A model generated the notes under the pieces. The model had not been told where the DNA came from. It worked only from the letters and a program-made list of their open reading frames with translations, and did not search any database. The position numbers and the translations under genes were made by a program. A DNA stretch of 42,657 nt from a virus (lineage: Duplodnaviria > Heunggongvirae > Uroviricota > Caudoviricetes), in the IMG/VR virus record IMGVR_UViG_2541047850_000006, positions 1-42,657 of that record, one strand, 5' to 3'. Positions within the stretch are counted from its first letter, which is position 1, and every line of letters starts with the position of its first letter. This document shows, in pieces, positions 1 through 36,018 of this stretch.

Positions 1-211
1 TCGTGAAAACGATAAAGCGTGACTACATCAGTATCATGCCCAAACCAGACGGGTTAACGGCAGCAAAGAACCTTGCAGAGGCGTTCGAGCATTATAACGA
101 ATGGCATCCGCATAGTGCGCTGGGTTATCGCTCGCCACGGGAATATCTGCGGCAGCGGGCTTGTAATGGGTTAAGTGATAACAGATGTCTGGAAATATAG
201 GGGCAAATCCA
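1..211 (+). mobile_element. insD: IS2 (IS3 family) right-end fragment: 3' end of orfB/InsD transposase plus terminal repeat; the element body lies upstream of the window
   Basis: ORF 3..200 ends ...[29 protein letters not shown] (rve-type DDE transposase C-terminus) and the DNA ends ...TGTCTGGAAATATAGGGGCAAATCCA at ~211; both match my recollection of IS2, not database-verified. Confidence 0.8.
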
Positions 212-2635: not shown

Positions 2636-3889
2636 TTATGATAGAGCCTTAATGCCCAAAACCTTGCTTTGTAACTCCAACTGCTTGGTATACGGTTTTG
2701 CCCGATAATAGGCTTTGATAATTTGTTCTGGCGTTGCACCGCCCGGGTCGAGTCCTTCCTCACCCAAACACGCAACTTTGACATTAAGACCGATACTGGT
2801 CAGTCGCCTAGCTGCGGGCATAGTGTTGCGTATAGCTTGCTTTTCACTATCCCACATCATGATCACATTACGTAACCCACGCGCCTTGAGCGTCAGGAAC
2901 GCGCCTAACTGATCTTCTGCATCCTGAGTGGTGTTGCCAGATAGATGCATCCCGAACGTTCCTATTGGTTCCACGTAATCACGTAATGTTTCTTCATCAA
3001 AAATAGCTCGTTTAACCCCCATAACATCGAACGCCCCCTCACAGACAACTACAGTCTGTTTGCCGACCGCATTATGGCCGTTGTAGAGAAACTTACCTGA
3101 AGCTGGAAGTTGCATAGGAAAGAGGTAGCGGCGTTCTGCTGTACCGGTAATGTCTCGTCCCTGAAATGTCTTCATTACCCCATCCAGATCGTAAATCGGT
3201 ATCAGTATTCGCATATCGAATATCTGCCCTTTAACCTGATCTGTATACGGATCTACATAAGCGTGCTTGCCTTCGACGCAGTATCGTAGGTCAAAATACT
3301 TTGCCATTTCAGGTGATATGTTTCGTTCAACCAGATAGTCTGGAAGACGGCCATCTATAGGAAGCTCGTAATGACGAGGGAGTGCAACTGGCCCCTCTAA
3401 CTCGACTGTGCTTGCAAGCACTAGCTCTTCTTTCTTTGGTGCCCACCCCTGGGAAAGAAGGGCGTTCTGCACATATTCCTCGAACTGTCGTCGTGATTTA
3501 CCGCTGTAGTGCTTGAGGAAGACCAGCTTATTGAACTGAATCTCTTCGGGATGATCACCAGCGAAGCATTTGCCGACGCCACTGGTCAGATTGAAATATA
3601 CCTTCCAGTTGGAGCTGCCGCATACCGGACACTCCTTGATATTCACTTCACGACCGCGAGCACTCACACCTCCACGTCGATAAACGATACCTTCAGTATC
3701 CAACCATTGTTCAAAATCTAATTCGGCAATTAGCTCTTTCAGCTCGCTCACGATAATTCCACTTTTAACAGGCAATATTATGACCAACATAAATGTTGAT
3801 ATAACATAAAGGCTCATGTGTTTTTCTTTTGTGGTTTGGCAAAAGAAAAGTTGTTTCACCAATGAATCAAGCGTGGAGGTGTTCTCCAC
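2636..3889 (-). CDS. DNA primase (zinc-binding domain + TOPRIM), T7 gp4 primase-domain-like; N-terminus probably over-extended (likely ATG near 3817)
   Basis: CPVCGSS...C..GDH zinc-ribbon-like motif; VVVCEGAFDVMG and MMWDSEKQA TOPRIM-like acidic motifs; the track start is GTG inside a hairpin at 3870-3892. Confidence 0.75.
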   Translation of the reverse strand: MENTSTLDSLVKQLFFCQTTKEKHMSLYVISTFMLVIILPVKSGIIVSELKELIAELDFEQWLDTEGIVYRRGGVSARGREVNIKECPVCGSSNWKVYFNLTSGVGKCFAGDHPEEIQFNKLVFLKHYSGKSRRQFEEYVQNALLSQGWAPKKEELVLASTVELEGPVALPRHYELPIDGRLPDYLVERNISPEMAKYFDLRYCVEGKHAYVDPYTDQVKGQIFDMRILIPIYDLDGVMKTFQGRDITGTAERRYLFPMQLPASGKFLYNGHNAVGKQTVVVCEGAFDVMGVKRAIFDEETLRDYVEPIGTFGMHLSGNTTQDAEDQLGAFLTLKARGLRNVIMMWDSEKQAIRNTMPAARRLTSIGLNVKVACLGEEGLDPGGATPEQIIKAYYRAKPYTKQLELQSKVLGIKALS

Positions 3890-3900
3890 GCTTATTTTTT
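3870..3900. terminator. Stem-loop (9-bp stem AGCGTGGAG/CTCCACGCT) between helicase and primase genes; followed by TATTTTTT on the plus strand
   Basis: Inverted repeat read directly; the U-tract is strong only for plus-strand (antisense) transcription and weak for the minus strand, so it may be an attenuator or an antisense terminator. Confidence 0.4.
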
Positions 3901-5239
3901 AGGTAACGTCTAAGATTCGCTCAATGAAGCGCATTTGTTCGAGGTTTTGTTTAACGCGAATGCTGATCCCTCCCTGTTGGTTACGTGAACCGGCAAAGTA
4001 GAGACGAGCCTCTCCTTTCGCTTCTTCTTCTTCGGTTTTGTTGATCGTTATTACCAGGTCAGCAATACGTACTTTTTCGATGTTGTCGGCAGCGTGCATC
4101 ATTGTGGCAACTTCTGACGCGCCACCTTCACGGTTTGTCTGCGATGCCGTGATCCCAGCAACGTTATGCTTGTCATAAAGAGCACGTAAATCGGTGTAGA
4201 TACTACGAATGTTGGCGCGATCATCACGAAGGTCATAACTGGCACGCATCAAATCTGCGTAGTCGACAACAACCATGTCAGGCACCATGCCGTTGGCTTT
4301 CATGCTGTTAAGCATACGGTCCAGATCTGCCGGTGACATACTTCCTGACGGACGCTCAACCACCCACAAACTACCAATCCCCTTCGTGGCTCCCAACTCT
4401 GCCAACTTACGGTGAACCTGATCGCGCCGTTCCACCAGCTTGGACATTTCCGTCTCCGACAATCTTGCATCAAAACGGTCAGATAAAATGGTGGTGTGAA
4501 CCTCCAGCGAGAGATACAGAACATTGTAGCCAGCAAGCGTTGCGTTTATGGAAAACTCACCCATTGCGGTCGATTTACCGGATTTAGCGAACCCCATGAA
4601 GAGCACCATTTCACGCTTCGCCCAGCCTTTTTGGTACAGCAACCTATCGAGCAGAGGGAGTCCAGTTGTAATGCTGTTTGGCACATACTCCTCTGAAGCC
4701 TCATATTCACGCGCTTTCAATCGCTCACTTGCGGAGGTGTAGTAGTCATAGATTCCGGTCGCTTCGTTCGATCCAATCTGCTGAACCTTGGCCATGATTG
4801 CCATCGCCCCCTGAAAGTCGCCCTTCTCTTTCAGTTCAGCAGCCTTAATCAGAGCATCATCAAACGCTACACTTTTTGCGAAGGTTGATACCTGGTCAAC
4901 CATGTACGAGGTATCGGACAATTTTTCTGCAAGAATGCGCTTAAACGCAGCAACAACATCGGCGAATAGTTCCTCACGGATAGTCTTATCGCGTTTCGCA
5001 CGCTTAAGCATATCCAGAATTGCAGATGAAGAGGGCGCGCTCTTGTACATACGGTAATAGCCCGAAACCATATTAACCAATATGGCATTGGCCGCATTGG
5101 CAAATTGGCTAGGCACAACCAGATCTCCCGCACGAGTAAGAAACTCGTGATCACGACAAAAATATGCCGTCAGTCTGTTCTGGAAATCTTCATCAAACTC
5201 TTCGGACAGCCCGCGTCCTGTATGGCAAAGTTCGGTCAT
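3899..5239 (-). CDS. Replicative DNA helicase, DnaB/RecA-fold (T7 gp4 helicase-domain-like)
   Basis: Walker A GFAKSGKST, Walker B MVVVDYADL, QTNREG region; ATG start with AAGGAAA SD. Confidence 0.8.
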   Translation of the reverse strand: MTELCHTGRGLSEEFDEDFQNRLTAYFCRDHEFLTRAGDLVVPSQFANAANAILVNMVSGYYRMYKSAPSSSAILDMLKRAKRDKTIREELFADVVAAFKRILAEKLSDTSYMVDQVSTFAKSVAFDDALIKAAELKEKGDFQGAMAIMAKVQQIGSNEATGIYDYYTSASERLKAREYEASEEYVPNSITTGLPLLDRLLYQKGWAKREMVLFMGFAKSGKSTAMGEFSINATLAGYNVLYLSLEVHTTILSDRFDARLSETEMSKLVERRDQVHRKLAELGATKGIGSLWVVERPSGSMSPADLDRMLNSMKANGMVPDMVVVDYADLMRASYDLRDDRANIRSIYTDLRALYDKHNVAGITASQTNREGGASEVATMMHAADNIEKVRIADLVITINKTEEEEAKGEARLYFAGSRNQQGGISIRVKQNLEQMRFIERILDVT

Positions 5240-5282
5240 GTGCTTTCCTTTGTTTTTTAAACAAATTGTTTTCTAGTATTAG

Positions 5283-6032
5283 TTAATTATATAGGGGATC
5301 AATAAACCACCGTGCTTCTTCCAGTTCTTCTGGAAAGTGGGCGGAAATAAGGCGCTCTGGAACGATTTCCATTAGCCAGATAGCGGAGAAAATTGCGCGT
5401 ATGCGCTTGCTGCGAGGGATGGTGCGCAAACGCTCCAGAATCCACTCAAAATAGCTTTCCTGAATCGGGTTGAACTGCATGTCTCCCATATGCTTAAAGC
5501 TAACCAGAGAGTCATCCAGACGGGTTGTTGCGCGTCTGGCTAATTTCTCTTCAAATATCTCAATCAGTTCTGGCTGCCATAAATGCTGCGGACGCGGCAG
5601 CTTGTCCCACAGACGTCGTGCAGCTGCGGAAAGCACGGTGGAGATAAAGTAGTCGTATGAGCAACAATAGCGGTCAGCAAACTGGCGTGCTTTCCATAAC
5701 GACGTTTTATTGGCAGTCGACAACTCCTGATAAGGCAGGCGTTTTAACCCGGTGGTGAACGGAGCTGTTTCAAAGTGTTCGCGACCGTGCGTCAGCATGA
5801 TATTTGAGTACTGACGTTTGTATGCCTCCGTAAAAAGACAGGTGGCCATGAGAGGATGCATGTCGCAGTAATCAAACCACTTCGTCTCGAAGAGTTCAGC
5901 CTCGTCTTTACAGCGCGACAAACCAATGTTTTCAGCGACCCACTTGTCCATAACAGCGGTATTCCACTCTGTCATGAAGTCGTACTGGTCGTTGTCGATG
6001 GTATCGAAAAAGATTTGGCTCATGTGGCTCAC
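5283..6032 (-). CDS. Hypothetical protein (about 246 aa from ATG at ~6023)
   Basis: Track ORF (GTG start); an in-frame ATG 9 nt downstream has an AGGTGA SD; a palindromic motif overlaps the start region (6036-6055). Confidence 0.5.
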   Translation of the reverse strand: MSHMSQIFFDTIDNDQYDFMTEWNTAVMDKWVAENIGLSRCKDEAELFETKWFDYCDMHPLMATCLFTEAYKRQYSNIMLTHGREHFETAPFTTGLKRLPYQELSTANKTSLWKARQFADRYCCSYDYFISTVLSAAARRLWDKLPRPQHLWQPELIEIFEEKLARRATTRLDDSLVSFKHMGDMQFNPIQESYFEWILERLRTIPRSKRIRAIFSAIWLMEIVPERLISAHFPEELEEARWFIDPLYN

Positions 6033-6137
6033 CTGGTAGGTAGTTACTTACTTATTACAATGAGCGGATGATAGCGACTGGTGGCAGTTTTTGGAAGTGG
6101 AAACGAAAGGGAGTTGTTCTGGTTGTGTCTTTTAAAA

Positions 6138-6196
6138 GACCTGCTTCTGTATATATTTAATAAGTTACTTATTATTTATATATACGGAAGCAGGCA
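6138..6196. repeat. Long near-perfect palindrome A (about 17-bp arms CCTGCTTCTGTATATAT / ATATATACGGAAGCAGG around an AT-rich core AATAAGTTACTTATT); copy 1 of 2
   Basis: Read directly; a second copy in inverted orientation at 35661-35716. Confidence 0.75.
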
Positions 6197-6309
6197 TACA
6201 TAACTTGTCGTCTTAGACGCCCAGAAGCTCTACACTTTGAGCCTGTTAAATTGATTAAAAACTTATGTGTAAAATAGAACGCATTAGTCAGTAGCTAAGA
6301 GATGCAATA

Positions 6310-7077
6310 ATGGACGATTTATCGGTATACGCGAGATCATTGGATAAGGCTAAATACTATGTTTACTGTCTCTATGATACAGAAGACAAGATGAAAAGAC
6401 CGTTTTACATAGGAAAAGGCAAATCGACTCGTTGTCTCGATCACATCAAGTATCCCGATGACTCTCCCAAATCCATGCGGATCAAAGAACTTTTGGCTAA
6501 TAAAAAATTAGGCATAGATATACTTCGTCATGGTATGGATGAAACCACAGCCAAACTTGTTGAGGCGACATGCATCGACCTTATGGGGGTCGGAGAGCTT
6601 ACGAATAAGGTTCGAGGAAGTGGTTCCATGATGGGCAGAATATCACTGGACGCCTACCATCACTTAGTGCTGCAAGAGGAAACTGAAATTGCTCCTGAGC
6701 ACGCCGGTCTTGCCTTCCTGCTAAACAGCACCTACAAGTCAGGAATGTCCGCTCTGGCATTATATGAAGCTACGCGTGGCGTATGGGCAAAGGTTCCAAG
6801 AGACGAGAATCTCAAATATGCCTACGCTACATATGGTGGGCTAATAATGGAAGTTTATCGGATTGAATGCTGGGTCAAAGCCGGTTCTCAGCAGTACTTT
6901 ACAAGGGATATAGCTCTTGGCCCCGACACAAAACGTTATGAATTTGTTGGCAGAATAGCCGATGAGCATATTAGAAAACTGTATGTAGGCAAATTAATCA
7001 AGAAGCCACCAAGCTACGGTAGCCCTTTTGTGAAGGTTGGAGTGGTTAGGACTGAACATAGTGTTAGCGCGGCATAA
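6310..7077 (+). CDS. GIY-YIG nuclease-domain protein (255 aa), stand-alone on the opposite strand
   Basis: N-terminal YYVYCLYD...PFYIGKGK...R..H and downstream Glu/Asn consistent with a GIY-YIG catalytic core; ATG start; followed by a strong terminator. Confidence 0.6.
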   Translation: MDDLSVYARSLDKAKYYVYCLYDTEDKMKRPFYIGKGKSTRCLDHIKYPDDSPKSMRIKELLANKKLGIDILRHGMDETTAKLVEATCIDLMGVGELTNKVRGSGSMMGRISLDAYHHLVLQEETEIAPEHAGLAFLLNSTYKSGMSALALYEATRGVWAKVPRDENLKYAYATYGGLIMEVYRIECWVKAGSQQYFTRDIALGPDTKRYEFVGRIADEHIRKLYVGKLIKKPPSYGSPFVKVGVVRTEHSVSAA

Positions 7078-7093
7078 AGCTGACACTGTAGTT

Positions 7094-7140
7094 ATGCATT
7101 GGCGCAATGTACGCGCCAATGCATGATTTTTAACCTTTTT
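7094..7140 (+). terminator. Rho-independent terminator (12-bp perfect stem ATGCATTGGCGC...GCGCCAATGCAT, then GATTTTTAACCTTTTTT)
   Basis: Inverted repeat plus T-tract read directly; sits between the convergent GIY-YIG and partition genes. Confidence 0.65.
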
Positions 7141-7489
7141 TCATCAACTCTCGTTTGATTTCATCGGTACGCATCGTGACATCGGCAGCTGTGATCGCCT
7201 CGTTCAGTTTCACGATGTCCTCGATTTCCTGCGGTGACTTCTCTGCCAGATGGAAAATGGCTGCGCGAATCACGTCAGAACGGGTGAACTTCTCGAAACG
7301 AGGGATGAACTTCATCATCTCCAGCAGTTCGAAGTATTCGTCTTCCAGTGACATTGTGCGGCTTTTAATTTTCTCTTTGCCACGAGTCGGGCGTCCCTGT
7401 GGTCTGACTGGTTGGCGCAAAGGAGTTGTGTTCTTAGCCGGTGCATCAGGCTCTTTGCGCTTTGCTAGGTCACCCATTTTCATGGACAT
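7130..7489 (-). CDS. ParG-like ribbon-helix-helix centromere-binding protein (partition adaptor)
   Basis: Basic disordered N-terminus followed by an RHH-like segment RTMSLEDEYFELLEMMKF...SDVIRAAIFHLAE; its start overlaps the stop of the upstream ParA gene by 1 nt. Confidence 0.55.
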   Translation of the reverse strand: MSMKMGDLAKRKEPDAPAKNTTPLRQPVRPQGRPTRGKEKIKSRTMSLEDEYFELLEMMKFIPRFEKFTRSDVIRAAIFHLAEKSPQEIEDIVKLNEAITAADVTMRTDEIKRELMKKG

Positions 7490-8157
7490 TATTCTTCTTC
7501 CTCCAGACTCAACAGATAATCTACAAATTCTTCAAACTCGGCTTCCGCCTTTTTGTCGCGCTCGCTACCGGTCATTTCAAAGATAGAACGACCAGACTCT
7601 TCCGCATCATCATAGACGTTGCGGTTATATAGATTGACTGGCGCAGACTCGATGCCAAACGTCTCGACAATCTCTTTAGCCGCCAGAATGCGAGACACTT
7701 GTGATGGCAAAGCCGGGCACTGGTTCATGACCGCGCGGACCTTCACTTTATCGTTTACATTACGAACATTGTCGATAATAGGATCGATGTCACGCAGGGA
7801 TTTCAAATCACGACGCTTAGGACGAAGCGGGATAATGATAACGTCGGCCATCAGCATCGCTTGTCGCTGAATTTCGGAGTCGAAGCCACCAGCATCTACC
7901 ACTACAAACTCAGCTCTACCCTGAAGCGATTTTAGGTGCTTAATGATGTCATCCTGAACGTATGCAAAAGGAATCAGCTCAAGGTCTTCGTTCTGTCGAC
8001 GGTCTTCACACCAGCTCGTTGTCGTGCGCTGAATATCTATATCGGTAATATAAACCTTCTTCTTCTTTTTGACTTTCAGGCAAACGGCAATTTGCTGGGC
8101 AACGGTGGATTTGCCAGGCCCGCCCTTTGTGCCGCCAACCACAAAGATCTTGGTCAT
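7489..8157 (-). CDS. parA: ParA/ParF-type partition ATPase (small type Ib, 222 aa)
   Basis: Deviant Walker A GGTKGGPGKST near the N-terminus; size and absence of an N-terminal HTH fit the ParF class; AGGGAA SD. Confidence 0.8.
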   Translation of the reverse strand: MTKIFVVGGTKGGPGKSTVAQQIAVCLKVKKKKKVYITDIDIQRTTTSWCEDRRQNEDLELIPFAYVQDDIIKHLKSLQGRAEFVVVDAGGFDSEIQRQAMLMADVIIIPLRPKRRDLKSLRDIDPIIDNVRNVNDKVKVRAVMNQCPALPSQVSRILAAKEIVETFGIESAPVNLYNRNVYDDAEESGRSIFEMTGSERDKKAEAEFEEFVDYLLSLEEEE

Positions 8158-8290
8158 TGGAGAGTTCCCTTTGCGTATATAATTATCGTCTGAAACAACT
8201 TGTTTTCTTATATGTGATATAGCCTAAATGCCTACGGCTGCTGTGTAAAGGTTTAATGATAGGTACATAGATTTGGTAAGGACTTAATAA

Positions 8291-11577: not shown

Positions 11578-11856
11578 TTAAAACCACTCCCTGAGCGGGC
11601 GCTCTGGTGTAACCACCCACTCACGGAACACGGAATCATCAAATCCATCGTCAAGAAGACGGATATTAACAAAGTACCCTTCGTTTCGCGTGTATTCTGG
11701 TTCTCCGTCATCAGAAACATCTGTCTCCCTGAACGTAAAACCAATCTCATCAACCAGAACGGCATTCTGCAGCTCTTCGTCCTCTTCCCAGTTAAGTTTC
11801 CTGAGAAATGCCCTGAAATCTGCTTTATCACTGAAACGCAACGTGAAATCTCTCAC
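11578..11856 (-). CDS. Small acidic protein (92 aa), possibly a tail-fiber accessory
   Basis: GTG start overlapping the tail fiber stop (GTGA) with GGGGAGG SD; function unknown. Confidence 0.4.
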   Translation of the reverse strand: MRDFTLRFSDKADFRAFLRKLNWEEDEELQNAVLVDEIGFTFRETDVSDDGEPEYTRNEGYFVNIRLLDDGFDDSVFREWVVTPERPLREWF

Positions 11857-14216
11857 TCCACAACCTCCCCAAGCTGCGCATCTGTTAGCTCTTTATGCCA
11901 GAGACGAAAATTCCTCACATGCCCAAATAAATGGCGTAATCCTGCTGTAGTTTGTCCACCAATGCGAATGGTTGCTGTACTCCGGATATATTCCCATTTG
12001 GTTTTAGTTTCGCTGCTTAACTTACCGTTACTGACTACACATGTGGACCGTTCGGACTTTACCCGCATACCAATAAGCATTTTTTTCAGCCCGGCATTTT
12101 CATTTATTCGTCGGTCTGAACCACCTATATCGCAATACGGAAAACCGTCGTACCCACCTGATGAACCAAACCCCATTACGATCCCCGCTCCGGTTTGATG
12201 ACCGCCGGTATCAAAAACACGCGGCGCTACATTTGGCGTTTTATACCAGTTCTTATGTACCTCACAAAAAACCGTAAAAGGAAGATTATAAAGATTATTC
12301 TTAATCGGAACTGTAACCATATCGCTTGCCCGCGTCGCCGCCGTCGTTCCTGATATAATAAAAGATGATACACACGAACCATCCTCAACCTGAGGGGTAG
12401 CCAGATAAATATAGTCACCAGATTCAACGACACCACCTTTTTTTGGTGCGTATTGTATTGCAGAGGTTATGTAAGTTTCTTTACTTGCTTGAATCGTTGC
12501 CTCTGCAAAAATCCAGCCCGTAACTTCATCTTTGTTAACTCGTGCGGTGAGCCTGTCGGCAGCTACACCGGTGATTTCAACCAATAAAGACCGCGTATTA
12601 ACAATGGCATATCCAAGATTAGATGAAGCGCTGCCATTGAAGGCTTCAAACCTGATCTTTAACAGGAGTTCCAAATCCGTTTTAAATCTGCACGATGTCG
12701 TCACGCACTTATTATCGCCTGATACATCGACAGCCCCCGAGGTTGAAACTACTGCCATATTAAGGGTTGTACTTTGCCCAATTAATGATTCATTACAAAC
12801 AAACTTTCCATAAGTAAAACCAAAACCATCAGTTCCAACCTCAGCGACATTCATATTTGCAGATTTACCCCAAGAAGCTGGAGTTGCTGAATTTAACATG
12901 TAGTTGGTTCGCTGACCTTCAATCAATAAACCTTCTTTTTCAAATCGTGGCTCATTAATTTCCGCCGTTTTCAGTTCGCCAGATTTGTTGATATATGTTG
13001 CCGTTGATGCGCGACTGAAATTAACCTGTTTATCACTGGCAACCTGAACCACATTATCACCAATCTTCACTTTTTTATAACCCGGAGAATAGCCCGTAAT
13101 CATATCCAGCGAATCATTAAAGGGTATCCACACATCCGGCAGCGGCTGTAAAACATATCTGTACGGCTCTGCTGTCTGGTTTGCGTATTCTCTGGCAGCA
13201 TCTTCACTTGCTTTTGCTGCCGTCTGGCTTGCTGCCGATGCTTTCGCCGAGTTCGCCGCCGCTGTTTCGCTCACCTTTGCGTTGGCTTCACTGGTTTTTG
13301 CTGCTTTTTGACTGTTAGCTGATGCAGTGGCAGAAGCAGCCGCCGCGCTTGCAGAACTGGCTGCGGCACTCTCGCTTTGGGCCGCTGCATCCTGACTGCT
13401 TTTCGCCGCAGTTTCACTGGCTTTGGCATTCGTTTCGCTGGTCTTCGCTGCCGTCTGGCTGGACTTTGCGTTAGTTTCACTCGTCTTCGCAGCTTTCTGG
13501 CTGTTAGCCGCGGCAGTTGCTGATCCGGCAGCTGAAGTCGCAGAACCAGCTGCGGCACTCTCGCTTTCGGCTGCCGCCGCCTGGCTGTTTTTTGCTGCGG
13601 TAGCGGAGTTGGCGGCAGCACTCTGACTCGATTTTGCAGCTACCTCGCTATTTTTCGCATTAGTTTCGCTGGTCTTTGAAGCTGTCTCACTCGCTTTTGA
13701 GTTAGTTTCTGATTTTTTGGCCGCTGTTGCGCTCGCTGCCGCCTCTTTAGCTTTTTGTGCAGCGGTGTTAATTATGGGAGTATTTTCTTTATACCATTCT
13801 AGGTTCTCATTGTGCTCATTAACGATCTGCGTAAGGGATTTTACGGTTAATTCCGTGCCATCTTCACGCTCAATTGTTATTTTATCCACAGCAGTCAGCC
13901 AACTACGCATCATTTTTGAATCGGCTGACATGCGAGACATAAGCGCAGTAAAACGAGCACTAAATTGGGTCAAATCACCTTCATAGGTCGTAATTATTCT
14001 GCACGGAACATTTGTTTGGGTGCTGCCACCGTAGGCTTCAACAAGAGTTAACGAAGTGTCACTCTCGATTGATTTTATTTCATATAACTTATTATCGGGG
14101 CCAATCAATATCATACCTGGAAGGACGCCGTTCGTCGTCACTCCCCAGGCTGTGCCTGTTCCCACTACAGTTTTATTTCCTTTAGTGAGATTTATTGTAC
14201 CTTCCCTGTACCACAT
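11853..14216 (-). CDS. Side tail fiber protein (lambdoid Stf-like) with Ala/Ser/Thr-rich KSETNAK-type tandem repeats
   Basis: Repeat block ...AAKKSETNSKASETASKTSETNAKNSE...SQKAAKTSETNAKSSQTAAKTSETNAKASETAAKSSQ... matches my recollection of lambdoid Stf repeats; ATG with SD; located after J. Confidence 0.75.
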   Translation of the reverse strand: MWYREGTINLTKGNKTVVGTGTAWGVTTNGVLPGMILIGPDNKLYEIKSIESDTSLTLVEAYGGSTQTNVPCRIITTYEGDLTQFSARFTALMSRMSADSKMMRSWLTAVDKITIEREDGTELTVKSLTQIVNEHNENLEWYKENTPIINTAAQKAKEAAASATAAKKSETNSKASETASKTSETNAKNSEVAAKSSQSAAANSATAAKNSQAAAAESESAAAGSATSAAGSATAAANSQKAAKTSETNAKSSQTAAKTSETNAKASETAAKSSQDAAAQSESAAASSASAAAASATASANSQKAAKTSEANAKVSETAAANSAKASAASQTAAKASEDAAREYANQTAEPYRYVLQPLPDVWIPFNDSLDMITGYSPGYKKVKIGDNVVQVASDKQVNFSRASTATYINKSGELKTAEINEPRFEKEGLLIEGQRTNYMLNSATPASWGKSANMNVAEVGTDGFGFTYGKFVCNESLIGQSTTLNMAVVSTSGAVDVSGDNKCVTTSCRFKTDLELLLKIRFEAFNGSASSNLGYAIVNTRSLLVEITGVAADRLTARVNKDEVTGWIFAEATIQASKETYITSAIQYAPKKGGVVESGDYIYLATPQVEDGSCVSSFIISGTTAATRASDMVTVPIKNNLYNLPFTVFCEVHKNWYKTPNVAPRVFDTGGHQTGAGIVMGFGSSGGYDGFPYCDIGGSDRRINENAGLKKMLIGMRVKSERSTCVVSNGKLSSETKTKWEYIRSTATIRIGGQTTAGLRHLFGHVRNFRLWHKELTDAQLGEVVE

Positions 14217-14309: not shown

Positions 14310-17300
14310 TCAAAGTCGACCAATTCTTACCCTGAGTACATTATTGTCGTCGTAAACGTCGATTCTCTGCCCATTGATAACTAATCTCCCATTTCCGCCA
14401 CTGTTACCGTTAATCTCAAGCGTTCCGTTTTTGCCAAATCTCCATCCGGCTCGTCCTCTTACGAAGTTTGTTGATTGTAAGTCACCTACCTTTGCGTTTG
14501 TGATAGTGCCATCTTTGATATAAGCACCGTTCATATACGCAACGCTGTTTTCGATAACAAATGGCGTTGTGATCTTCCCATTAACATTGTTGACCAAACC
14601 AAATCGATCTGCCCGCACCAAAAACTGAGAAAGCCCCGTTGTATCAATACCCAGCGCAATGCCCGCTACATACTTCTGCCCACCACTCGTTGAAGTTTCC
14701 ATCTTCAATGTGTACGAGGTTGATACTTTTCTATTAGCGTCAGCTATAGCAGAAGCCTGCTGCTGAATAACGGCAACATTTCCATCTACAGACGCTTTCA
14801 GTGTATCAATTCGTTTTCCTAGAGCGTTGTCTGCACTTGTTCTGGCCTTTGACTCTGACGTAATCGCTGCATTGATATAATTTGTTGTTTGCGACTGGAG
14901 ATTAGTTACCCTTGTCGAAAGCGCTGCATCAGCATCAGTTCTGGCTTTCGTCTCTTCTGCTACAGCAGCCTTTATATCTTTACCTGTTTGTGTCTTTAGT
15001 GAGTTAATCTGCGACGTCAATGCGGTATCAGCGGCAGCTCTTGCTTGAGTTTCAACCGCAACAGCTGCACTTATATCCTTAGCAGTTTTTGTTTTAAAAC
15101 TTGCCAAGTCTTTTGCAATGGCAGAATCCTGACTTGTACGAGATGTCGATTCTCGCTCTATCGAGGACTGAAGATTATTAGCCCTCGTAGTAAGAGAAGA
15201 AATTTGTCTGGATAATGCATCGTTAGCGTCAGTTCTTGCTTTGGTTTCAACTGCTACCGCCGCTGCAATATCTTTACCTGTTTTTGTTTTTAAACTACTA
15301 ACTTCTCTTGATAGTGCACTATCGCCTGATGCTCTGGCTTCTCTTTCCTCATTAATAGCAGCAGATATATCGTTATTAACTTTTGTTTGAAGTTGAGTTA
15401 TTTGCCTTGATAATGCTTCATCTTGCGTTGCTCTTGTTTGTTGCTCTTCTCTAATAGCGGTTGAAATATCAGTATTTACTTTAGACTCCAGTTGTGTGAT
15501 CTGCTTTGAAAGAGTCTCATTGGCCGATGCTCTTGCAGATTGTTCGGTCCTTATTGCGGCACTGATATCACCTTCAAATTTACTCTGTAATTGTGTCACA
15601 CGATTGGCTAACGCATTATCACCATCAGTTCTGGCTGTCGCTTCTTCGAGAATAGATGCTCGAATGTTGTCACCAATCTCGGCTCGTATCTCTTCAACCT
15701 TAGACGCCATTGCTGACACATCATCGACAAGAATCTTTTGAGTCGTGGCAATTTTCGCGTTATTTACCAGCTGTCTGTGCTGATCTTCGTCCTGCCGCAA
15801 CGCAAGATCGATATTTGTCTTAGAAATGGCTTCAAGATTAGTTGTGATTTCTGAACTTACTCTTCCTACCTCAGCAACCGTTCTCCGCATTTCTTCTACA
15901 GCCGCAACACTTTCATCAACCGATGATCTCATCGTTTCTATCTTTTTAGCATTCGCTAGATCTGCTTGTGCACGAACTTTACGCTCTTCGGCAATTAAAG
16001 ATGATGCATTTTCAAGTGCCGCATTTGCTGCTTCTACGACACCAGCAACAGAATCACCTTGTTTTGATACTGTATTACGTAGTTCAATAAGTGCTGCATT
16101 TGAATTTTCAACTTGTCGTAATGCATCATCTACTTTTTCCCGAGTGCTAGAAACTTCCGTTCTAAGCTCGCTTTGCGCATTCTCCAGTGTCTCGCTGCGT
16201 TCAGTAAACGATGTTTTGAACTCATCGATACTACTCGTTAGCTCCTTATTTAATGCGGAAATTTCACCTTCCAGAGATTCGACGCTCTGATCGATATGAT
16301 TATTGATTTCATCAACAGCTTGTTGAGAAGCCTTACTGTCAATTTCCTCATTTAAAGCCTGGCCAAGTTCTGACGAGGTAATTTTATTGGCTAAAAATGA
16401 AAGAACATCTCGCGTTGTGGCCTCTGTACCAAGATTTGAGTTTGGGCGACTCAACATGCCACGCTTATTTGCTGATCTAACCCAGTAATACCAAGTTTCA
16501 CTATCCCCAAGACCAGCATGTGTAAAGGTGGTGCTTGCAGACTCTGCGATCAGTTTCGCCGTATCCAGATTGTTGGTCTGGGATGCGTAAACATTAATGT
16601 GATCAAGGTCTACCGAATCTGGATTGACCCAATTCAGTATCACATTACGATAGTCCCCAACTGCCGTTAATGACGTTGGTGCATCCGGCGGTGTCATTGT
16701 GCCCAGCACCTGATAAACGGTACTGATAATCTCTGTTTTTTTACCGTTGAATGAAACCGCATACAGTTGGAAGTCGTAGCGTCCATTCTCCGCGACATTA
16801 ACGATTTCGTATTGCTCTTCGGTTACACGTGCCGATTGCCAGTTCGATACATTGTTTTCATCAGAACGTCGCCAACTGATCCAATACTCTGGAGATTTCC
16901 CTTCCCATGTTGCAGTCAGTTTTACTGACAGGTTGCCTGGGCTTGAGAGATAAGTCCCTTCGGTGATTTGCAAATTAGACGGCTTGGAGTAAGTCGGGTC
17001 CAATACCGTCGTATTCTGCGGGATAAGCGTTGCACCATTGTCGATTGCCTCATATTTAGACGGATTGTTCTCAACAGCGGTGATGTCAAAGCTACCCGAC
17101 GTTTCCCCCTGAGCGATGTTAACGATGCGAACGCGCATAGGTTCGAGATCTGGTTCTGTGATTGTCCATACACCGTTCAAAACAGGCGTTTCCGCTGACG
17201 ACAGAGCTTTTGAAAACGTAACCTTTGTTATGTTTTCGCCAGTTTCAAGAACATCGCGTTCAACGATTTTGCCTTCCTGATTCAATATCCGAATAAAGCT

Positions 17301-33665: not shown

Positions 33666-34922
33666 CTATCTCGAACCACCAAGAATAACACGGTTTTTTA
33701 CTGGATACCTACGATGTACTGGGTAGCCCAATGCGTCTGCACTATGCTCAATGCCACCTGTCTTATCCATATCTCGTGTTCCAGGCTTGTAGATGACCTT
33801 TTCCAGCGAATCAATCAAATGCTTGCATTTCGGATCGATATACAGCCTGATATCCCCAGATGCGGTCATCAGCATTCGGTTAACTGCATTAACACGATCC
33901 GCAATTGGCGGGTGTTTTTTTGAATAATCGACACGCAAGAATCCCTTCTCTTTGAATATGTCGACGTCAGACTCACCGCGAGCATGTTGACGATAAGCAC
34001 CAGCCGGAGCAGGAAATACCGTTATCTGTGATTTCCATCGCCAGAAACGTCTCTCCAGCTCATCACACACTTCTGCCGTGTTAGAGGAAAAGAGCACCAA
34101 TTCATCAATTGCCCATAGCTCACCGTTTGGCTGAGGTTGCAAAATTACGGAAGACATCGGGTCAATGTTGAAGTCCTGCCCTACCCATATAGGCAACCGA
34201 GGGTTGAACTGAAGCGGTTTTACATGCACGTTACGATCGAACGGGTAGTAAACGCGCCCGGACATGTTCTCAAAGCTGGCTAGGTACTCCTGAGCGAACG
34301 ATTTCGGGTCCATATCGTTCTTAGCAGCTTCAATTTCCGCCGTAGGTACGAACGGAGAATCGGCAGTTACAAACTGCCAGCTTTTCCACTGTCCCTTTCT
34401 TTGCAGCTCTACGTTCTGGCCTATAGTCCACAGTTTGTGAAATTCCGAGAAGCCTTTTGGCGTACCAATGATCAGTGCACCGCCACGTGTCGATGAAAGA
34501 GTAGGTCGTAACACCTTGTACCAGGTGTCAGCCTTCATATCCTGAAATTCATCAAGAACTACAAAATGCAACGCTACGCCGCGCAGAGTGTCAGGCTTAT
34601 CAGCACCTTTGAGGGCGATCTCCGAACCGTTCTTCAACACGATTGTCATCGTGGTGTCGTTCTTTTTTCTAACCCACTTACGAGGCAGAACTTCCTGTAG
34701 ATCGTCCCACAAAATCTGGCGAGCCATCTGGTAAGTAGGAGCGACATACCAGACCCTTTGCTTTTTTTCCTTTGCCGCCGCACGAATAATAGTGGAGATC
34801 GACAACCGGGATTTTCCCCAGCGTCGACCAGCACAAACAACTTTAAATCGATGGGGAGACTGGAAGACTTTCATCTGTCCAGAATGCAGTTGCACAAGAC
34901 TGAGCGAGGACGGGATTGCCAT
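33666..34922 (-). CDS. Terminase large subunit
   Basis: Walker A-like VVCAGRRWGKS, Walker B-like VVLDEFQDM, C-terminal nuclease-size domain; overlaps the small-subunit stop. Confidence 0.8.
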   Translation of the reverse strand: MAIPSSLSLVQLHSGQMKVFQSPHRFKVVCAGRRWGKSRLSISTIIRAAAKEKKQRVWYVAPTYQMARQILWDDLQEVLPRKWVRKKNDTTMTIVLKNGSEIALKGADKPDTLRGVALHFVVLDEFQDMKADTWYKVLRPTLSSTRGGALIIGTPKGFSEFHKLWTIGQNVELQRKGQWKSWQFVTADSPFVPTAEIEAAKNDMDPKSFAQEYLASFENMSGRVYYPFDRNVHVKPLQFNPRLPIWVGQDFNIDPMSSVILQPQPNGELWAIDELVLFSSNTAEVCDELERRFWRWKSQITVFPAPAGAYRQHARGESDVDIFKEKGFLRVDYSKKHPPIADRVNAVNRMLMTASGDIRLYIDPKCKHLIDSLEKVIYKPGTRDMDKTGGIEHSADALGYPVHRRYPVKNRVILGGSR

Positions 34923-35554
34923 TATTCGTCCTCCCCTTCACTTCCATCATCTGTCGCATCAAATTCGCTTAGAGCTTCTTCTTCCAACGTCTCAAGCAAT
35001 TCGTCATCGATGATTTCAGGCTCGTCGTCTTCCTGACGTAATTTCGCCACCTGGGAAGGCGTAAGTTCGCCAAATACCAGGTTCGGAATTTCTTCCTCGT
35101 CATTTTCTGCATGATCCATACCCAACGCTTTGGACGAAACTTCAAAGCATTTTGCAAGGGTATTACTTGCTCTCTGTAAGCTCTTGAGAGAATCCTCAAT
35201 CACCCCTAAAGGCTTACCCTCACGTTTGGCCGTAGTGACTTCGACCATCACCATCTGCCCCAACGCATACGCCCAGCCGTCATAACGTGTACGACGTTCT
35301 TCTATCTTTTCCGCACGGGCTTTAGCGCGAAGCTCTGCGTCAGATTTAAGAGACTCACGAACCATCTTCCCAACAGAGTCCGCGCCTTTCTCTAATCCTC
35401 GCTTTTTGAAATGTCTGGAGAGTGTTTCACGACGAATGCCGTACTCTTCCTCCAGCTTTGAGAGTGTATATTCGCCTGACGTCCATTTGGCTTCAGCTTC
35501 GGCCCACTCCGCTGGTGTCAGGCGAGTTTTTACCTCGTCTTTTTCGACAGTCAT
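34922..35554 (-). CDS. Terminase small subunit candidate (N-terminal HTH, acidic C-terminus)
   Basis: Position immediately upstream of TerL; HTH-like LSKLEEEYGIRRETLSRHFKKRG; GAGGGA SD. Confidence 0.55.
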   Translation of the reverse strand: MTVEKDEVKTRLTPAEWAEAEAKWTSGEYTLSKLEEEYGIRRETLSRHFKKRGLEKGADSVGKMVRESLKSDAELRAKARAEKIEERRTRYDGWAYALGQMVMVEVTTAKREGKPLGVIEDSLKSLQRASNTLAKCFEVSSKALGMDHAENDEEEIPNLVFGELTPSQVAKLRQEDDEPEIIDDELLETLEEEALSEFDATDDGSEGEDE

Positions 35555-35640
35555 AGATCCCTCTAAAACACACAGAGCGCGTCCATGCGCTCTAAAACAA
35601 CTTGTTTACTGCATCTACTAACCAACTTGTTTTCTGAGGT

Positions 35641-35738
35641 GTTTAATTAGGTCTGGGCATGTCTTATTAAGCCTGCTTCTGTATATATATTTAATAAGTT
35701 ATTTATTATTTATATACAGAAGCAGGTCTTTAAAATAA
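35641..35738. repeat. Long palindrome B (core 35661-35716 CCTGCTTCTGTATATA...TATATACAGAAGCAGG with extended imperfect symmetry GTCTGGG...CCCAGAC); copy 2 of 2, inverted relative to copy A
   Basis: Read directly; lies between the wHTH gene stop and the terS start region. Confidence 0.75.
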
Positions 35739-35751
35739 GCTCCCAGACCGA

Positions 35752-36018
35752 TTACATCACCAGTAACTTCGCTTTGGCTCGACCTAAAGTGGTTAACCCA
35801 AGAGTTCGGCGGTGATAGCGATTGTCACTGCGTTGGCGCGTATGCCCTTTCTCCACCAGCCCCTTTTTTATCAGAGCGCGAATTGAGAACTGGATACTTT
35901 GCTTTGTTGTCTTGTACGGCAAAACTTCAAGCAATTCGTCCAGATCAAGTAGATGACCTCGCTCATAACCGAGATTGAGCGTTTTGATGATGTCCTTTTG
36001 TTTATTGGTTAATGTCAT
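35752..36018 (-). CDS. Small winged-helix DNA-binding protein candidate (88 aa)
   Basis: Helix-turn-helix plus basic wing pattern ...TKQSIQFSIRALIKKGLVEKGHTRQRSDNRYHRR...; last gene of the coupled operon. Confidence 0.45.
   Translation of the reverse strand: MTLTNKQKDIIKTLNLGYERGHLLDLDELLEVLPYKTTKQSIQFSIRALIKKGLVEKGHTRQRSDNRYHRRTLGLTTLGRAKAKLLVM

What the first reader, a model, noticed from the sequence alone, without database searches (positions are those of the whole stretch)
6138..6196. Long palindromic element A in the divergent intergenic region of the replication module, one of two near-identical copies ~29.5 kb apart
Seen: about 59-bp near-perfect palindrome with ~17-bp arms (one mismatch) around an AT-rich core that itself contains the ATAAGT..ACTTAT core. 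It sits in the 277-bp divergent region between the 5283..6032 gene and the GIY-YIG gene. The flanks (TTTTAAAAGACCTGCTTCTG... / ...CGGAAGCAGGCATACATAA) match palindrome B in reverse-complement orientation. Inference: a high-affinity operator, a bidirectional stem-loop, or a site for a site-specific DNA transaction (origin-like or recombination site). The two inverted copies bracket the partition-lysis-tail-head-terminase arc.
Basis: partly seen in the sequence, partly recalled or inferred. Interest (0 to 1): 0.62.

Follow-up and report, generated by a model that had tools for sequence, protein, structure and literature searches.

The report
Conserved three-copy palindromic terminator, phage-plasmid
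The palindrome is real and is one of three conserved copies of a hairpin element at module boundaries of SSU5-type phage-plasmids; this copy most likely stops transcription from the partition and cargo genes running into the lytic replication genes, and its unusually conserved arms hint at a second, unknown DNA-level role.

Summary
Window 6140-6194 is a 55-nt palindrome with 17-nt arms, one T·G mismatch and an AT-rich core. A near-identical copy lies at 35672-35726. The window is an SSU5-like phage-plasmid, 99.9% identical to Escherichia phage PhiR41_1, and the whole genome holds a third copy, C, outside the window.

All three copies (A, B, C) sit at the same syntenic intergenic sites in every relative whose contig reaches the site: 78, 73 and 72 IMG/VR loci. 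In 5,426 complete E. coli genomes, 1273 of 1275 matches lie on ~105-115 kb plasmids.

In the direction of the genes (window minus strand), A and C are followed by a T-rich tail in nearly all lineages; B never is. In the relative Cyrano, published RNA-seq falls from log2 ~8-10 (parA operon) to the detection floor in the gene just after hairpin A.

Best reading: A is an intrinsic terminator or insulator that shields the replication module from par and cargo transcription. It also marks the edge of a cargo hot spot, with 18 left-flank types.

The arm sequence is conserved far beyond what a terminator needs, the copies evolve in concert, and B lacks a U-tract. A DNA-level role (centromere, pac, origin or break site) is therefore not excluded. 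No inversion of the A-B segment was seen.

The parts
6140..6194 (-). Palindrome A, 55 nt. Arms are 6140-6156 and 6178-6194, with the centre at AATAAGT-T-ACTTATT (6159-6173). It is read as an RNA hairpin on the minus strand, which is the gene direction.
   Evidence: Sequence. The fold gives -26.8 kcal/mol with z -7.0 on the minus strand. The arm motif is enriched. It is present in 78/78 relatives whose contig reaches the site.
6130..6139 (-). T-rich tail directly 3' of hairpin A on the minus strand (TCTTTTAAAA).
   Evidence: Sequence. There are 4-7 T in the 8 nt after the stem in all 28 distinct flank types of A, although the tail sequence differs between lineages.
6117..6122 (.). Outer inverted-repeat half TTCTGG on the replication-module side of A. 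It pairs with CCAGAA at 6222-6227.
   Evidence: Sequence. The core TCTGG...CCAGA recurs around A, B and C in most lineages.
6222..6227 (.). Outer inverted-repeat half CCAGAA on the cargo side of A.
   Evidence: It is missing in some cargo variants (L158, L164), so it is not essential at A.
35672..35726 (-). Palindrome B, 55 nt, with perfect 10-bp GC-rich arm bases. It lies between the 88-aa gene and the small-terminase-like gene.
   Evidence: The extended form folds at -47 kcal/mol with z about -10. It is present in 73/73 relatives, and no T-rich tail occurs in any lineage.
35650..35749 (.). Extended palindrome B, about 100 bp, with outer arms GGTCTGGG (35650-35657) and CCCAGACC (35742-35749).
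5283..6032 (-). 249-aa gene (phrog_2500, function unknown). It is the first gene after hairpin A, followed by the DnaB-like helicase (3899-5239) and the primase (2636-3889).
   Evidence: Its Cyrano orthologue CYRAN_31 is at the detection floor in the lysogen. The fold search gave no significant match.
6310..7077 (+). GIY-YIG (LEM-3-like) gene, one of many alternative cargo cassettes on the cargo side of A.
   Evidence: It is absent from SSU5, Cyrano and CMS-2020a SCU-175.
7130..8157 (-). The parA (7489-8157) and 119-aa partner (7130-7489) operon, whose transcription runs towards A.
   Evidence: The Cyrano orthologues CYRAN_28 and CYRAN_29 are expressed in the lysogen.
34922..35554 (-). Small-terminase-like DNA-binding protein gene, the first late gene downstream of B.
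35752..36018 (-). 88-aa gene (phrog_900) that ends about 25 nt before extended palindrome B. It is conserved next to B even in Xenorhabdus and Raoultella.

Best explanation
Palindrome A belongs to a family of three sequence-related hairpin elements (A, B, C). They sit at fixed intergenic boundaries between the functional modules of SSU5-type phage-plasmids, where almost all genes point one way (the window minus strand).

Proposed mechanism for A. RNA polymerase arrives from the constitutively expressed partition operon and the variable cargo genes. It transcribes the 55-nt palindrome, and the RNA folds into a long hairpin closed by a 10-bp G+C-rich base, followed directly by UCUUUU. This gives intrinsic termination. 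In the plasmid (lysogenic) state it keeps the lytic replication genes (249-aa gene, DnaB-like helicase, primase) silent.

The hairpin fold, the tail, the position and the expression drop are shown. The termination event itself is inferred.

The three copies share 55-100 bp of identical sequence, so they also recombine. This homogenises the copies and makes the cargo-side base of A a junction for cassette exchange.
For: (1) The hairpin folds strongly on the sense strand: -26.8 kcal/mol, z -7.0.

(2) A T-rich tail lies directly after the stem on the sense side only. This holds for A (4-7 T of 8) and for C in nearly all lineages, even though the tail sequences differ (TCTTTTAA, TCTTTTTC, TTTTTTTA, CTGTTTTG, CTTTTTAA...), which indicates selection for T-richness. 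The opposite flank is not A-rich.

(3) In relatives without the GIY-YIG cassette, A lies 10-30 nt after the stop codon of the last gene of the parA operon or cargo, and 110-170 nt before the 249-aa gene.

(4) Published RNA-seq of the Cyrano lysogen (PMC9928086, S1 Table) supports termination. CYRAN_28-30 read log2 5.2-10.8. CYRAN_31, just past hairpin A, reads 2.3-4.2 against a floor of 2.32. The mean drop is about 6 log2 units over ten samples, and the hairpin is the only strong structure in that 193-nt gap.

(5) More distant relatives (Morganella, Xenorhabdus) carry an ordinary GC hairpin plus T-run at the same position.

(6) Pairing is maintained. 97.1% of cells in the 10 outer pairs are paired, and 3 pairs show compensatory double changes, matched by 11 of 500 shuffles. 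One example is CCTGTTTC/GAAACAGG.

(7) U·G wobbles on the sense strand outnumber C·A mismatches 32 to 2 in class A.

(8) The cargo side of A has 18 flank types among 77 genomes, against 5 on the module side. An insulator makes sense at such a site.
Against: B, the most perfect copy, never has a T-rich tail on either side.

Half of the outer stem pairs never vary, and the arm sequence CCTGCTTCYGTATA persists where the neighbouring protein is only 54-64% identical. In Raoultella B and in Xenorhabdus the arm motif survives without forming a compact hairpin. A plain terminator does not need this.

The outer inverted repeat TCTGG...CCAGA lies beyond the termination point.

In class C, wobble and non-wobble mismatches are equally common.

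In this window A is not directly downstream of a co-directional gene, and its own stem has a C·A mismatch on the sense strand.

The expression evidence is gene-level and comes from a relative. No 3' ends are mapped.

The stem of about 25 bp is longer than typical terminators.
Confidence: 0.55

Rival explanations
1. The palindromes are DNA-level protein-binding sites shared by the three copies. One version is dispersed plasmid centromeres, like the palindromic sop sites scattered in N15, bound by the 119-aa partner of ParA. Another is recognition sites for the small-terminase-like or the 88-aa DNA-binding protein (pac-type). A third is operators of a phage regulator. Any terminator activity of A and C would then be secondary.
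For: The arm sequence and the outer TCTGG/CCAGA repeat are conserved much better than the spacers between them.

The arms persist as motifs at 54-64% protein identity, and as TATGGGAGCA half-sites in Xenorhabdus and Morganella with partner distances of 20-130 nt.

B has no U-tract.

In Raoultella, A starts 10 nt after the parA/120-aa operon, the position of P1 parS or F sopC. B lies directly upstream of the terminase genes and next to a conserved 88-aa gene.
Against: The distance between arms varies from 51 to 57 nt through TA slippage, and by much more in distant relatives, which is awkward for a fixed dimer.

Mismatched arms are tolerated (G/A, T/C, C/A), and compensatory changes occur.

The one-sided T-rich tail of A and C has no DNA-level rationale.

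pMT1 keeps a perfect B although it lacks this ParA type.

No binding protein could be identified. The 119-aa and 88-aa proteins have no Pfam or PDB matches.
Confidence: 0.2
2. The AT-rich palindromes are lytic replication origins, or programmed hairpin or cruciform break sites. Cleaved by the phage's own SbcCD-like or RuvC-like nucleases, they would start T4-style recombination-dependent replication from a circular plasmid.
For: Cyrano is annotated with SbcC- and SbcD-like, RuvC, UvsX/RecA, UvsY, UvsW and gp32-like genes.

The core is AT-only and clamped by G+C-rich arms, and the three copies are spread round the circle at 32, 29.5 and 46 kb.

The copies evolve in concert: A = B in several E. 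coli genomes and A = C in another lineage.

Mosaic junctions lie exactly at the base of A.

A lies next to the helicase and primase genes.
Against: Cumulative GC skew rises monotonically with no inflection at A, B or C. This is a weak test because all genes share one strand.

Gene conversion and mosaic junctions are expected for any repeated 55-bp identity.

There is no direct evidence of breaks or of initiation.
Confidence: 0.08
3. It is a repeated palindromic 'linker' with no dedicated function. It would persist because it is a safe intergenic recombination joint, maintained by hairpin-templated repair and gene conversion.
For: Concerted evolution occurs. The palindrome interior flips, as in L134 and window A against the common form. 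TA-repeat slippage is visible. Cargo junctions lie at A.
Against: The element is present in 100% of relatives at the same three sites across Escherichia, Salmonella, Klebsiella, Enterobacter, Yersinia and others.

There are only three copies per replicon, and essentially none outside this plasmid family.

The T-rich tails of A and C are conserved, and expression drops across A.
Confidence: 0.1
4. A and B are crossover sites of a site-specific inversion system that flips the 29.5-kb late-gene arc.
For: There are two near-identical palindromes 29.5 kb apart, and a tyrosine recombinase gene elsewhere in the genome.
Against: There are three copies, not two.

The flanks of B fall into two lineage clusters that are the same on both sides. 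No genome among 73-77 joins an A flank to a B flank.

Gene orientation is the same in PhiR41_1, SSU5, Cyrano and pMT1.

No recombinase gene lies next to either site.
Confidence: 0.02

Closest known systems
Rho-independent (intrinsic) transcription terminators that insulate operons, such as lambda tR' or T7 T-phi (named from general knowledge)
   Same: A has a G+C-rich stem base followed directly by a U-rich tail on the transcribed strand. It lies at the 3' end of an expressed operon, and transcript level drops sharply across it.
   Different: The stem is about 25 bp with an AT-only upper part. Three copies share the same stem sequence, which is conserved across genera. A second, outer inverted repeat is present. 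One family member (B) has no U-tract.
PeSL (promoter-early stem-loop) cassettes at the borders of variable gene blocks in T4-type phages (recalled from the literature, not checked here)
   Same: A repeated stem-loop sits at module borders and coincides with junctions of swapped gene cassettes. Recombination between the repeats is implied.
   Different: There are only three copies, at fixed syntenic sites. No promoter was recognised inside the element. It is far longer and more palindromic, and it occurs in an unrelated phage group.
Dispersed palindromic centromere sites of the linear plasmid-prophage N15 (recalled from the literature, not checked here)
   Same: A few palindromic sites are scattered through a phage-plasmid genome, and one lies next to the partition genes.
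   Different: N15 sites are 16-bp perfect palindromes bound by SopB of a type Ia system. Here the elements are 55-100 bp, the ParA is a small type Ib-like ATPase, and binding is untested.
ERIC/REP-type intergenic palindromic repeats of enterobacteria
   Same: They are imperfect palindromes in transcribed intergenic regions that can form long RNA hairpins.
   Different: Those families have tens to hundreds of dispersed chromosomal copies. This element has three syntenic copies, is confined to one plasmid family, and matches no Rfam family.
AT-rich palindromic replication origins such as herpes simplex oriS and oriL (general knowledge)
   Same: An AT-rich centre is flanked by inverted conserved boxes, with several copies per genome.
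   Different: No initiator protein was identified, and there is no skew or other replication signal.

Membership tests
Intrinsic (Rho-independent) terminator | A stable G+C-containing stem-loop in the RNA of the transcribed strand. | tested here: met
   On the minus strand the fold gives -26.8 kcal/mol with z -7.0, and the stem has a 10-bp base with 6 G-C pairs. In 56 distinct relatives, 97.1% of outer stem cells are paired.
Intrinsic (Rho-independent) terminator | A U-rich tract directly 3' of the stem. | tested here: met
   A has UCUUUUAAAA. There are 4-7 T of 8 in all A flank types, and mostly 5 or more in C. This is not met for copy B, which has 2-4 T.
Intrinsic (Rho-independent) terminator | It lies at the end of a co-directional transcription unit. 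| tested here: met
   This is met in SSU5, pJN2-26, Cyrano and Raoultella. In this window an opposite-strand GIY-YIG cassette lies between the par operon and A.
Intrinsic (Rho-independent) terminator | Transcripts end there. | tested here: inconclusive
   Gene-level RNA-seq of the relative Cyrano drops by about 6 log2 units across the hairpin. No 3'-end mapping is available.
Plasmid centromere (parS/sopC-like, N15-type dispersed) | A repeat or palindrome adjacent to the par operon. | tested here: met
   A begins 10 nt after the parA/120-aa operon in Raoultella and lies downstream of the par operon in Cyrano.
Plasmid centromere (parS/sopC-like, N15-type dispersed) | It is bound by the cognate centromere-binding protein and gives stabilisation or incompatibility. 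| not testable with these tools
   The 119-aa partner has no recognisable domain or solved relative.
Plasmid centromere (parS/sopC-like, N15-type dispersed) | It co-occurs with its par system. | tested here: inconclusive
   pMT1 lacks this ParA type yet keeps a perfect B. However, pMT1 is a recently decayed relative.
Site-specific inversion system | Both orientations of the bracketed segment occur among relatives. | tested here: not met
   No exchanged flanks occur in 73-77 genomes. Gene order is the same in all complete records read.
Site-specific inversion system | A recombinase gene lies next to a crossover site. | tested here: not met
   The neighbours are the 249-aa, GIY-YIG, 88-aa and TerS-like genes.
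Dispersed miniature repeat (REP/ERIC/MITE-like) | Many copies at non-syntenic sites, also outside this replicon type. | tested here: not met
   There are three syntenic copies per genome. 1273 of 1275 E. coli matches are on ~105-115 kb plasmids. There are no extra degenerate copies in the window.
Palindromic replication origin | An AT-rich unwinding core between inverted conserved boxes. | tested here: met
   The sequence architecture fits. This is a resemblance of form only.
Palindromic replication origin | A replication signal (skew inflection) or an adjacent initiator. | tested here: not met
   Cumulative GC skew is monotonic. The 249-aa protein has no significant fold match. Both are weak tests.

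The most novel reading that the evidence does not exclude
The three palindromes are primarily cis-acting DNA sites of the phage-plasmid life cycle, and their terminator activity is a secondary use. One possibility is hairpin or cruciform sites cut or loaded by the phage's own SbcCD-, RuvC- or UvsW-type enzymes, which would switch a circular plasmid into T4-style recombination-dependent lytic replication. Another is N15-style dispersed centromeres or packaging-start sites.
Probability: 0.15. Interest if true: 0.8.

Novelty: new variant of a known kind. Interest (0 to 1): 0.45.

Why it matters
SSU5/pHCM2/pMT1-type phage-plasmids are common in clinical Enterobacteriaceae. There were 778 PLSDB records with this element and 260 of 5,426 complete E. 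coli genomes. They carry variable cargo, including toxin-antitoxin and resistance genes.

A conserved insulator at the edge of the cargo hot spot would explain how arbitrary expressed cargo can be inserted without switching on the lytic replication genes. It would also give a defined landmark and recombination joint for cassette exchange.

The palindromes break short-read assemblies. The SSU5 reference record itself starts inside copy B, which matters for annotation and for any inference about genome ends.

If the conserved arms turn out to be a protein-recognised DNA site, they would identify the still unknown centromere, pac site or lytic origin of this family.

Tried and rejected
Rfam: nothing at gathering thresholds over the whole window. 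Only sub-threshold generic miRNA-hairpin matches appeared at A.

Simple terminator scan: it does not flag A because the tail has 4 consecutive T and the rule needs 5 of 8. It does flag ordinary terminators at 8314-8295(-) and 35594-35573(-).

Physical genome end at B: the SSU5 linear record begins inside palindrome B. However, the joined sequence has exactly the length of B in other phages. Four IMG/VR contigs also start inside hairpins A or C. I therefore read this as an assembly break and not as a cos or telomere site.

LexA box: the arms contain CTGTATAT...ATATACAG, but the halves are about 35 nt apart and many copies have CCG in place of CTG. Rejected.

Sigma-54 and phage RNA-polymerase promoter resemblances: the spacing does not fit, and no RNA polymerase gene is annotated in the records read. 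Rejected.

GC skew gave no signal.

PDB sequence searches of the 119-aa and 88-aa proteins found nothing.

Literature searches for SSU5, pHCM2 or pMT1 with palindrome, inverted repeat or PhageTerm found no description of the element. The PhiR41_1 preprint could not be opened.

pMT1 keeps only B, which is uninformative for the centromere question.

Full report
**What the window is.** Bases 5000-8000 are 99.9% identical to Escherichia phage PhiR41_1 (PV340561, 107,998 bp, circular) and 83% identical to Salmonella phage SSU5. The window is therefore a 42.7-kb stretch of an SSU5/pHCM2-type phage-plasmid. It corresponds to PhiR41_1 positions of about 81.3 to 38.7 kb, reversed. Nearly all genes lie on the window minus strand.

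**The observation.** The palindrome is real. Arms CCTGCTTCTGTATATAT (6140-6156) and ATATATACGGAAGCAGG (6178-6194) carry one T/G mismatch. They flank an A+T-only core centred on AATAAGT-T-ACTTATT.
- The element lies in the 277-bp gap between ORF 5283..6032(-) and the GIY-YIG ORF 6310..7077(+).
- A second copy is at 35672-35726. As expected for palindromes, it matches in both orientations.
- The arm 14-mer occurs four times in the window against 0.02 expected, with no further degenerate copies.
- Both strands fold far better than shuffles, with z from -6.5 to -11.
- B is in fact a roughly 100-bp palindrome with outer arms GGTCTGGG and CCCAGACC. A weaker TTCTGG/CCAGAA pair flanks A.

**There are three copies, at fixed sites.** The complete PhiR41_1 genome has a third copy, C, at 13435-13487, after a DNA methylase gene. 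SSU5 has the same three sites.
- I fetched relatives through the neighbouring proteins and not through the palindrome itself. This gave 80, 75 and 74 IMG/VR loci for sites A, B and C. The hairpin is present in 78, 73 and 72 of them.
- The six misses are contigs that start inside the hairpin or stop short of it.
- The element occurs in 778 PLSDB plasmids of Klebsiella, Escherichia, Enterobacter, Salmonella, Yersinia (pMT1), Citrobacter and Cronobacter.
- In complete E. coli genomes, 1273 of 1275 matches lie on ~105-115 kb plasmids.
- It is therefore neither a chance palindrome nor a generic dispersed repeat.

**Position in the genome.** The three copies divide the one-directional gene circle into three parts:
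- B to A holds the late structural, lysis and partition genes.
- A to C holds replication and nucleotide metabolism.
- C to B holds accessory and regulatory genes.

In SSU5, Klebsiella pJN2-26, Cyrano and a Raoultella plasmid, A lies between co-directional genes. It starts 10-30 nt after the stop codon of the last par or cargo gene and ends 110-170 nt before the 249-aa gene that precedes the DnaB-like helicase and primase. The 'divergent' setting in this window is a local accident. The GIY-YIG gene is one of at least 18 different sequences found on that side of A in 77 genomes, whereas the other side falls into 5 lineage clusters. The flanks of B are stable. The similarity between genomes with different cargo ends exactly at the base of the hairpin.

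**Evidence for a terminator or insulator.**
- On the gene strand, A is followed by TCTTTTAAAA. Across lineages the tail sequence changes (TCTTTTTC, TCTTTTAC, TTTTTTTA, TCTGTTTT) but stays T-rich, with 4-7 T of 8. The same holds for C. The opposite flank is not correspondingly A-rich.
- Sense-strand U·G wobbles outnumber C·A mismatches 32 to 2 in class A.
- The outer ten stem pairs are paired in 97.1% of cells, with three compensatory pairs, matched by 11 of 500 shuffles. Stepwise C-G to U-G to U-A paths are visible.
- More distant relatives (Morganella, Xenorhabdus) have an ordinary GC hairpin plus T-run at the same position.
- The published RNA-seq table for the LF82/Cyrano lysogen (PMC9928086, S1 Table) is the most direct evidence. 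It shows parA, CYRAN_29 and CYRAN_30 at log2 5.2-10.8 in ten samples. CYRAN_31, the first gene after hairpin A, reads 2.3-4.2 against a floor of 2.32. The 193-nt gap between them contains the hairpin plus TCTTTT, about 25 nt after the stop codon.

I therefore take A to be an intrinsic terminator. It would keep par and cargo transcription out of the lytic replication genes in the plasmid state. The termination event itself is inferred, because no 3' ends are mapped.

**What a plain terminator does not explain.**
- B, the most perfect copy, has no T-rich tail in any lineage.
- Five of the ten outer pairs never vary. The arm sequence survives where the neighbouring protein is only 54-64% identical (L363, L364, L378).
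- In Raoultella B the two arm motifs are present but no longer form one hairpin.
- In Xenorhabdus and Morganella a related motif, TATGGGAGCA, persists at A and B, with its inverted partner 20-130 nt away or absent.
- The spacers between the inner and outer repeats diverge freely, while the repeats do not.
- The copies evolve in concert. A equals B in several E. coli genomes, A equals C in another lineage, and arm variants are shared between B and C in Klebsiella. The interior can flip.

Some sequence-specific constraint, or frequent gene conversion, acts on top of hairpin formation. Candidate DNA-level roles are dispersed centromeres, a pac or TerS site at B, an operator, a lytic origin, or a break site for the phage's SbcCD-, RuvC- and UvsX/Y/W-type machinery (annotations). 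I could neither support nor exclude any of them.
- GC skew is featureless.
- The 249-aa, 119-aa and 88-aa neighbours have no informative domain, fold or solved relative.
- pMT1 keeps only B.

**The inversion idea.** It fails the comparative test. No A flank is ever joined to a B flank in 73-77 genomes, and gene order is the same in all complete records read.

**The SSU5 record.** The SSU5 reference record starts inside palindrome B. The joined sequence has the normal length, and other contigs break inside A and C. I read this as an assembly break, not a genome end.

**Known or new.** No Rfam family matches, and I found no paper describing the element. In kind it is an intrinsic terminator or insulator, but of an unusual sort. 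It is long, it has three sequence-identical copies at module borders conserved across genera, it evolves in concert, it marks a cargo-exchange junction, and one member lacks a U-tract. I class it as a new variant of a known kind, of moderate interest. The interest would be considerably higher if the conserved arms prove to be a protein-recognised DNA site.

Noticed in passing
window 5255-5274, 8189-8208, 35591-35610, 35616-35635: A 13-mer palindrome AAACAAnTTGTTT occurs here. The whole PhiR41_1 genome has 18 copies against 0.13 in shuffles. All lie just upstream of genes on the coding strand and share the context TTTAC-N8-AGAAAACAAnTTGTTT. It is probably a phage-specific promoter or repressor-operator family, reminiscent of the dispersed C1 operators of P1.
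   Followed up: partly
window 35573-35594 (minus strand): An ordinary GC hairpin plus T-run (GAGCGCATGGACGCGCTC TGTGTGTTTT) lies between the two motifs above and the start codon of the terminase-small-subunit-like gene. It is conserved in SSU5, Klebsiella and Raoultella. It looks like a leader terminator, which suggests that the late operon is controlled by antitermination or attenuation.
   Followed up: partly
window about 7086-7120: A perfect 13-bp GC-rich hairpin ATGCATTGGCGCG-TACAT-TGCGCCAATGCAT lies between the 119-aa gene and the 3' end of the GIY-YIG gene, with a T-run only on the plus strand. Relatives carry it with the loop inverted. It is probably the cassette's own terminator.
   Followed up: no
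window 6197-7129 (cargo side of hairpin A): This is a cargo hot spot, with 18 different left-flank sequence types among 77 related genomes. In Cyrano the same region holds expressed genes next to toxin-antitoxin pairs. Here it holds a LEM-3-like GIY-YIG nuclease gene.
   Followed up: partly
L005:1-18 with L007:3263-3299 (SSU5 NC_018843), and L142, L146, L294, L306: The SSU5 reference record and several IMG/VR contigs begin inside one of the palindromes. Assemblies of this plasmid family break at these elements, so record ends there should not be read as physical genome ends.
   Followed up: yes
window 90-206 and 1077-1177: Two direct repeats (40 nt at 85% and 36 nt at 78%) lie about 980 bp apart, near a fragment annotated 'mobile element protein' in PhiR41_1. 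They may be remnants of an insertion sequence.
   Followed up: no
window 13190-13650 and 14830-15650: Internal repeats with periods of 63-99 nt and their multiples occur inside the tail-fibre gene (11853-14216) and the host-specificity (J-like) gene (14310-18923) (families D1-D5).
   Followed up: no
Cyrano annotation in PMC9928086 S1 Table (homologous regions lie outside the window): The phage-plasmid carries SbcC- and SbcD-like, RuvC-like, UvsX/RecA, UvsY, UvsW and gp32-like genes. This is a T4-style recombination set in a genome that maintains three long palindromes.
   Followed up: no
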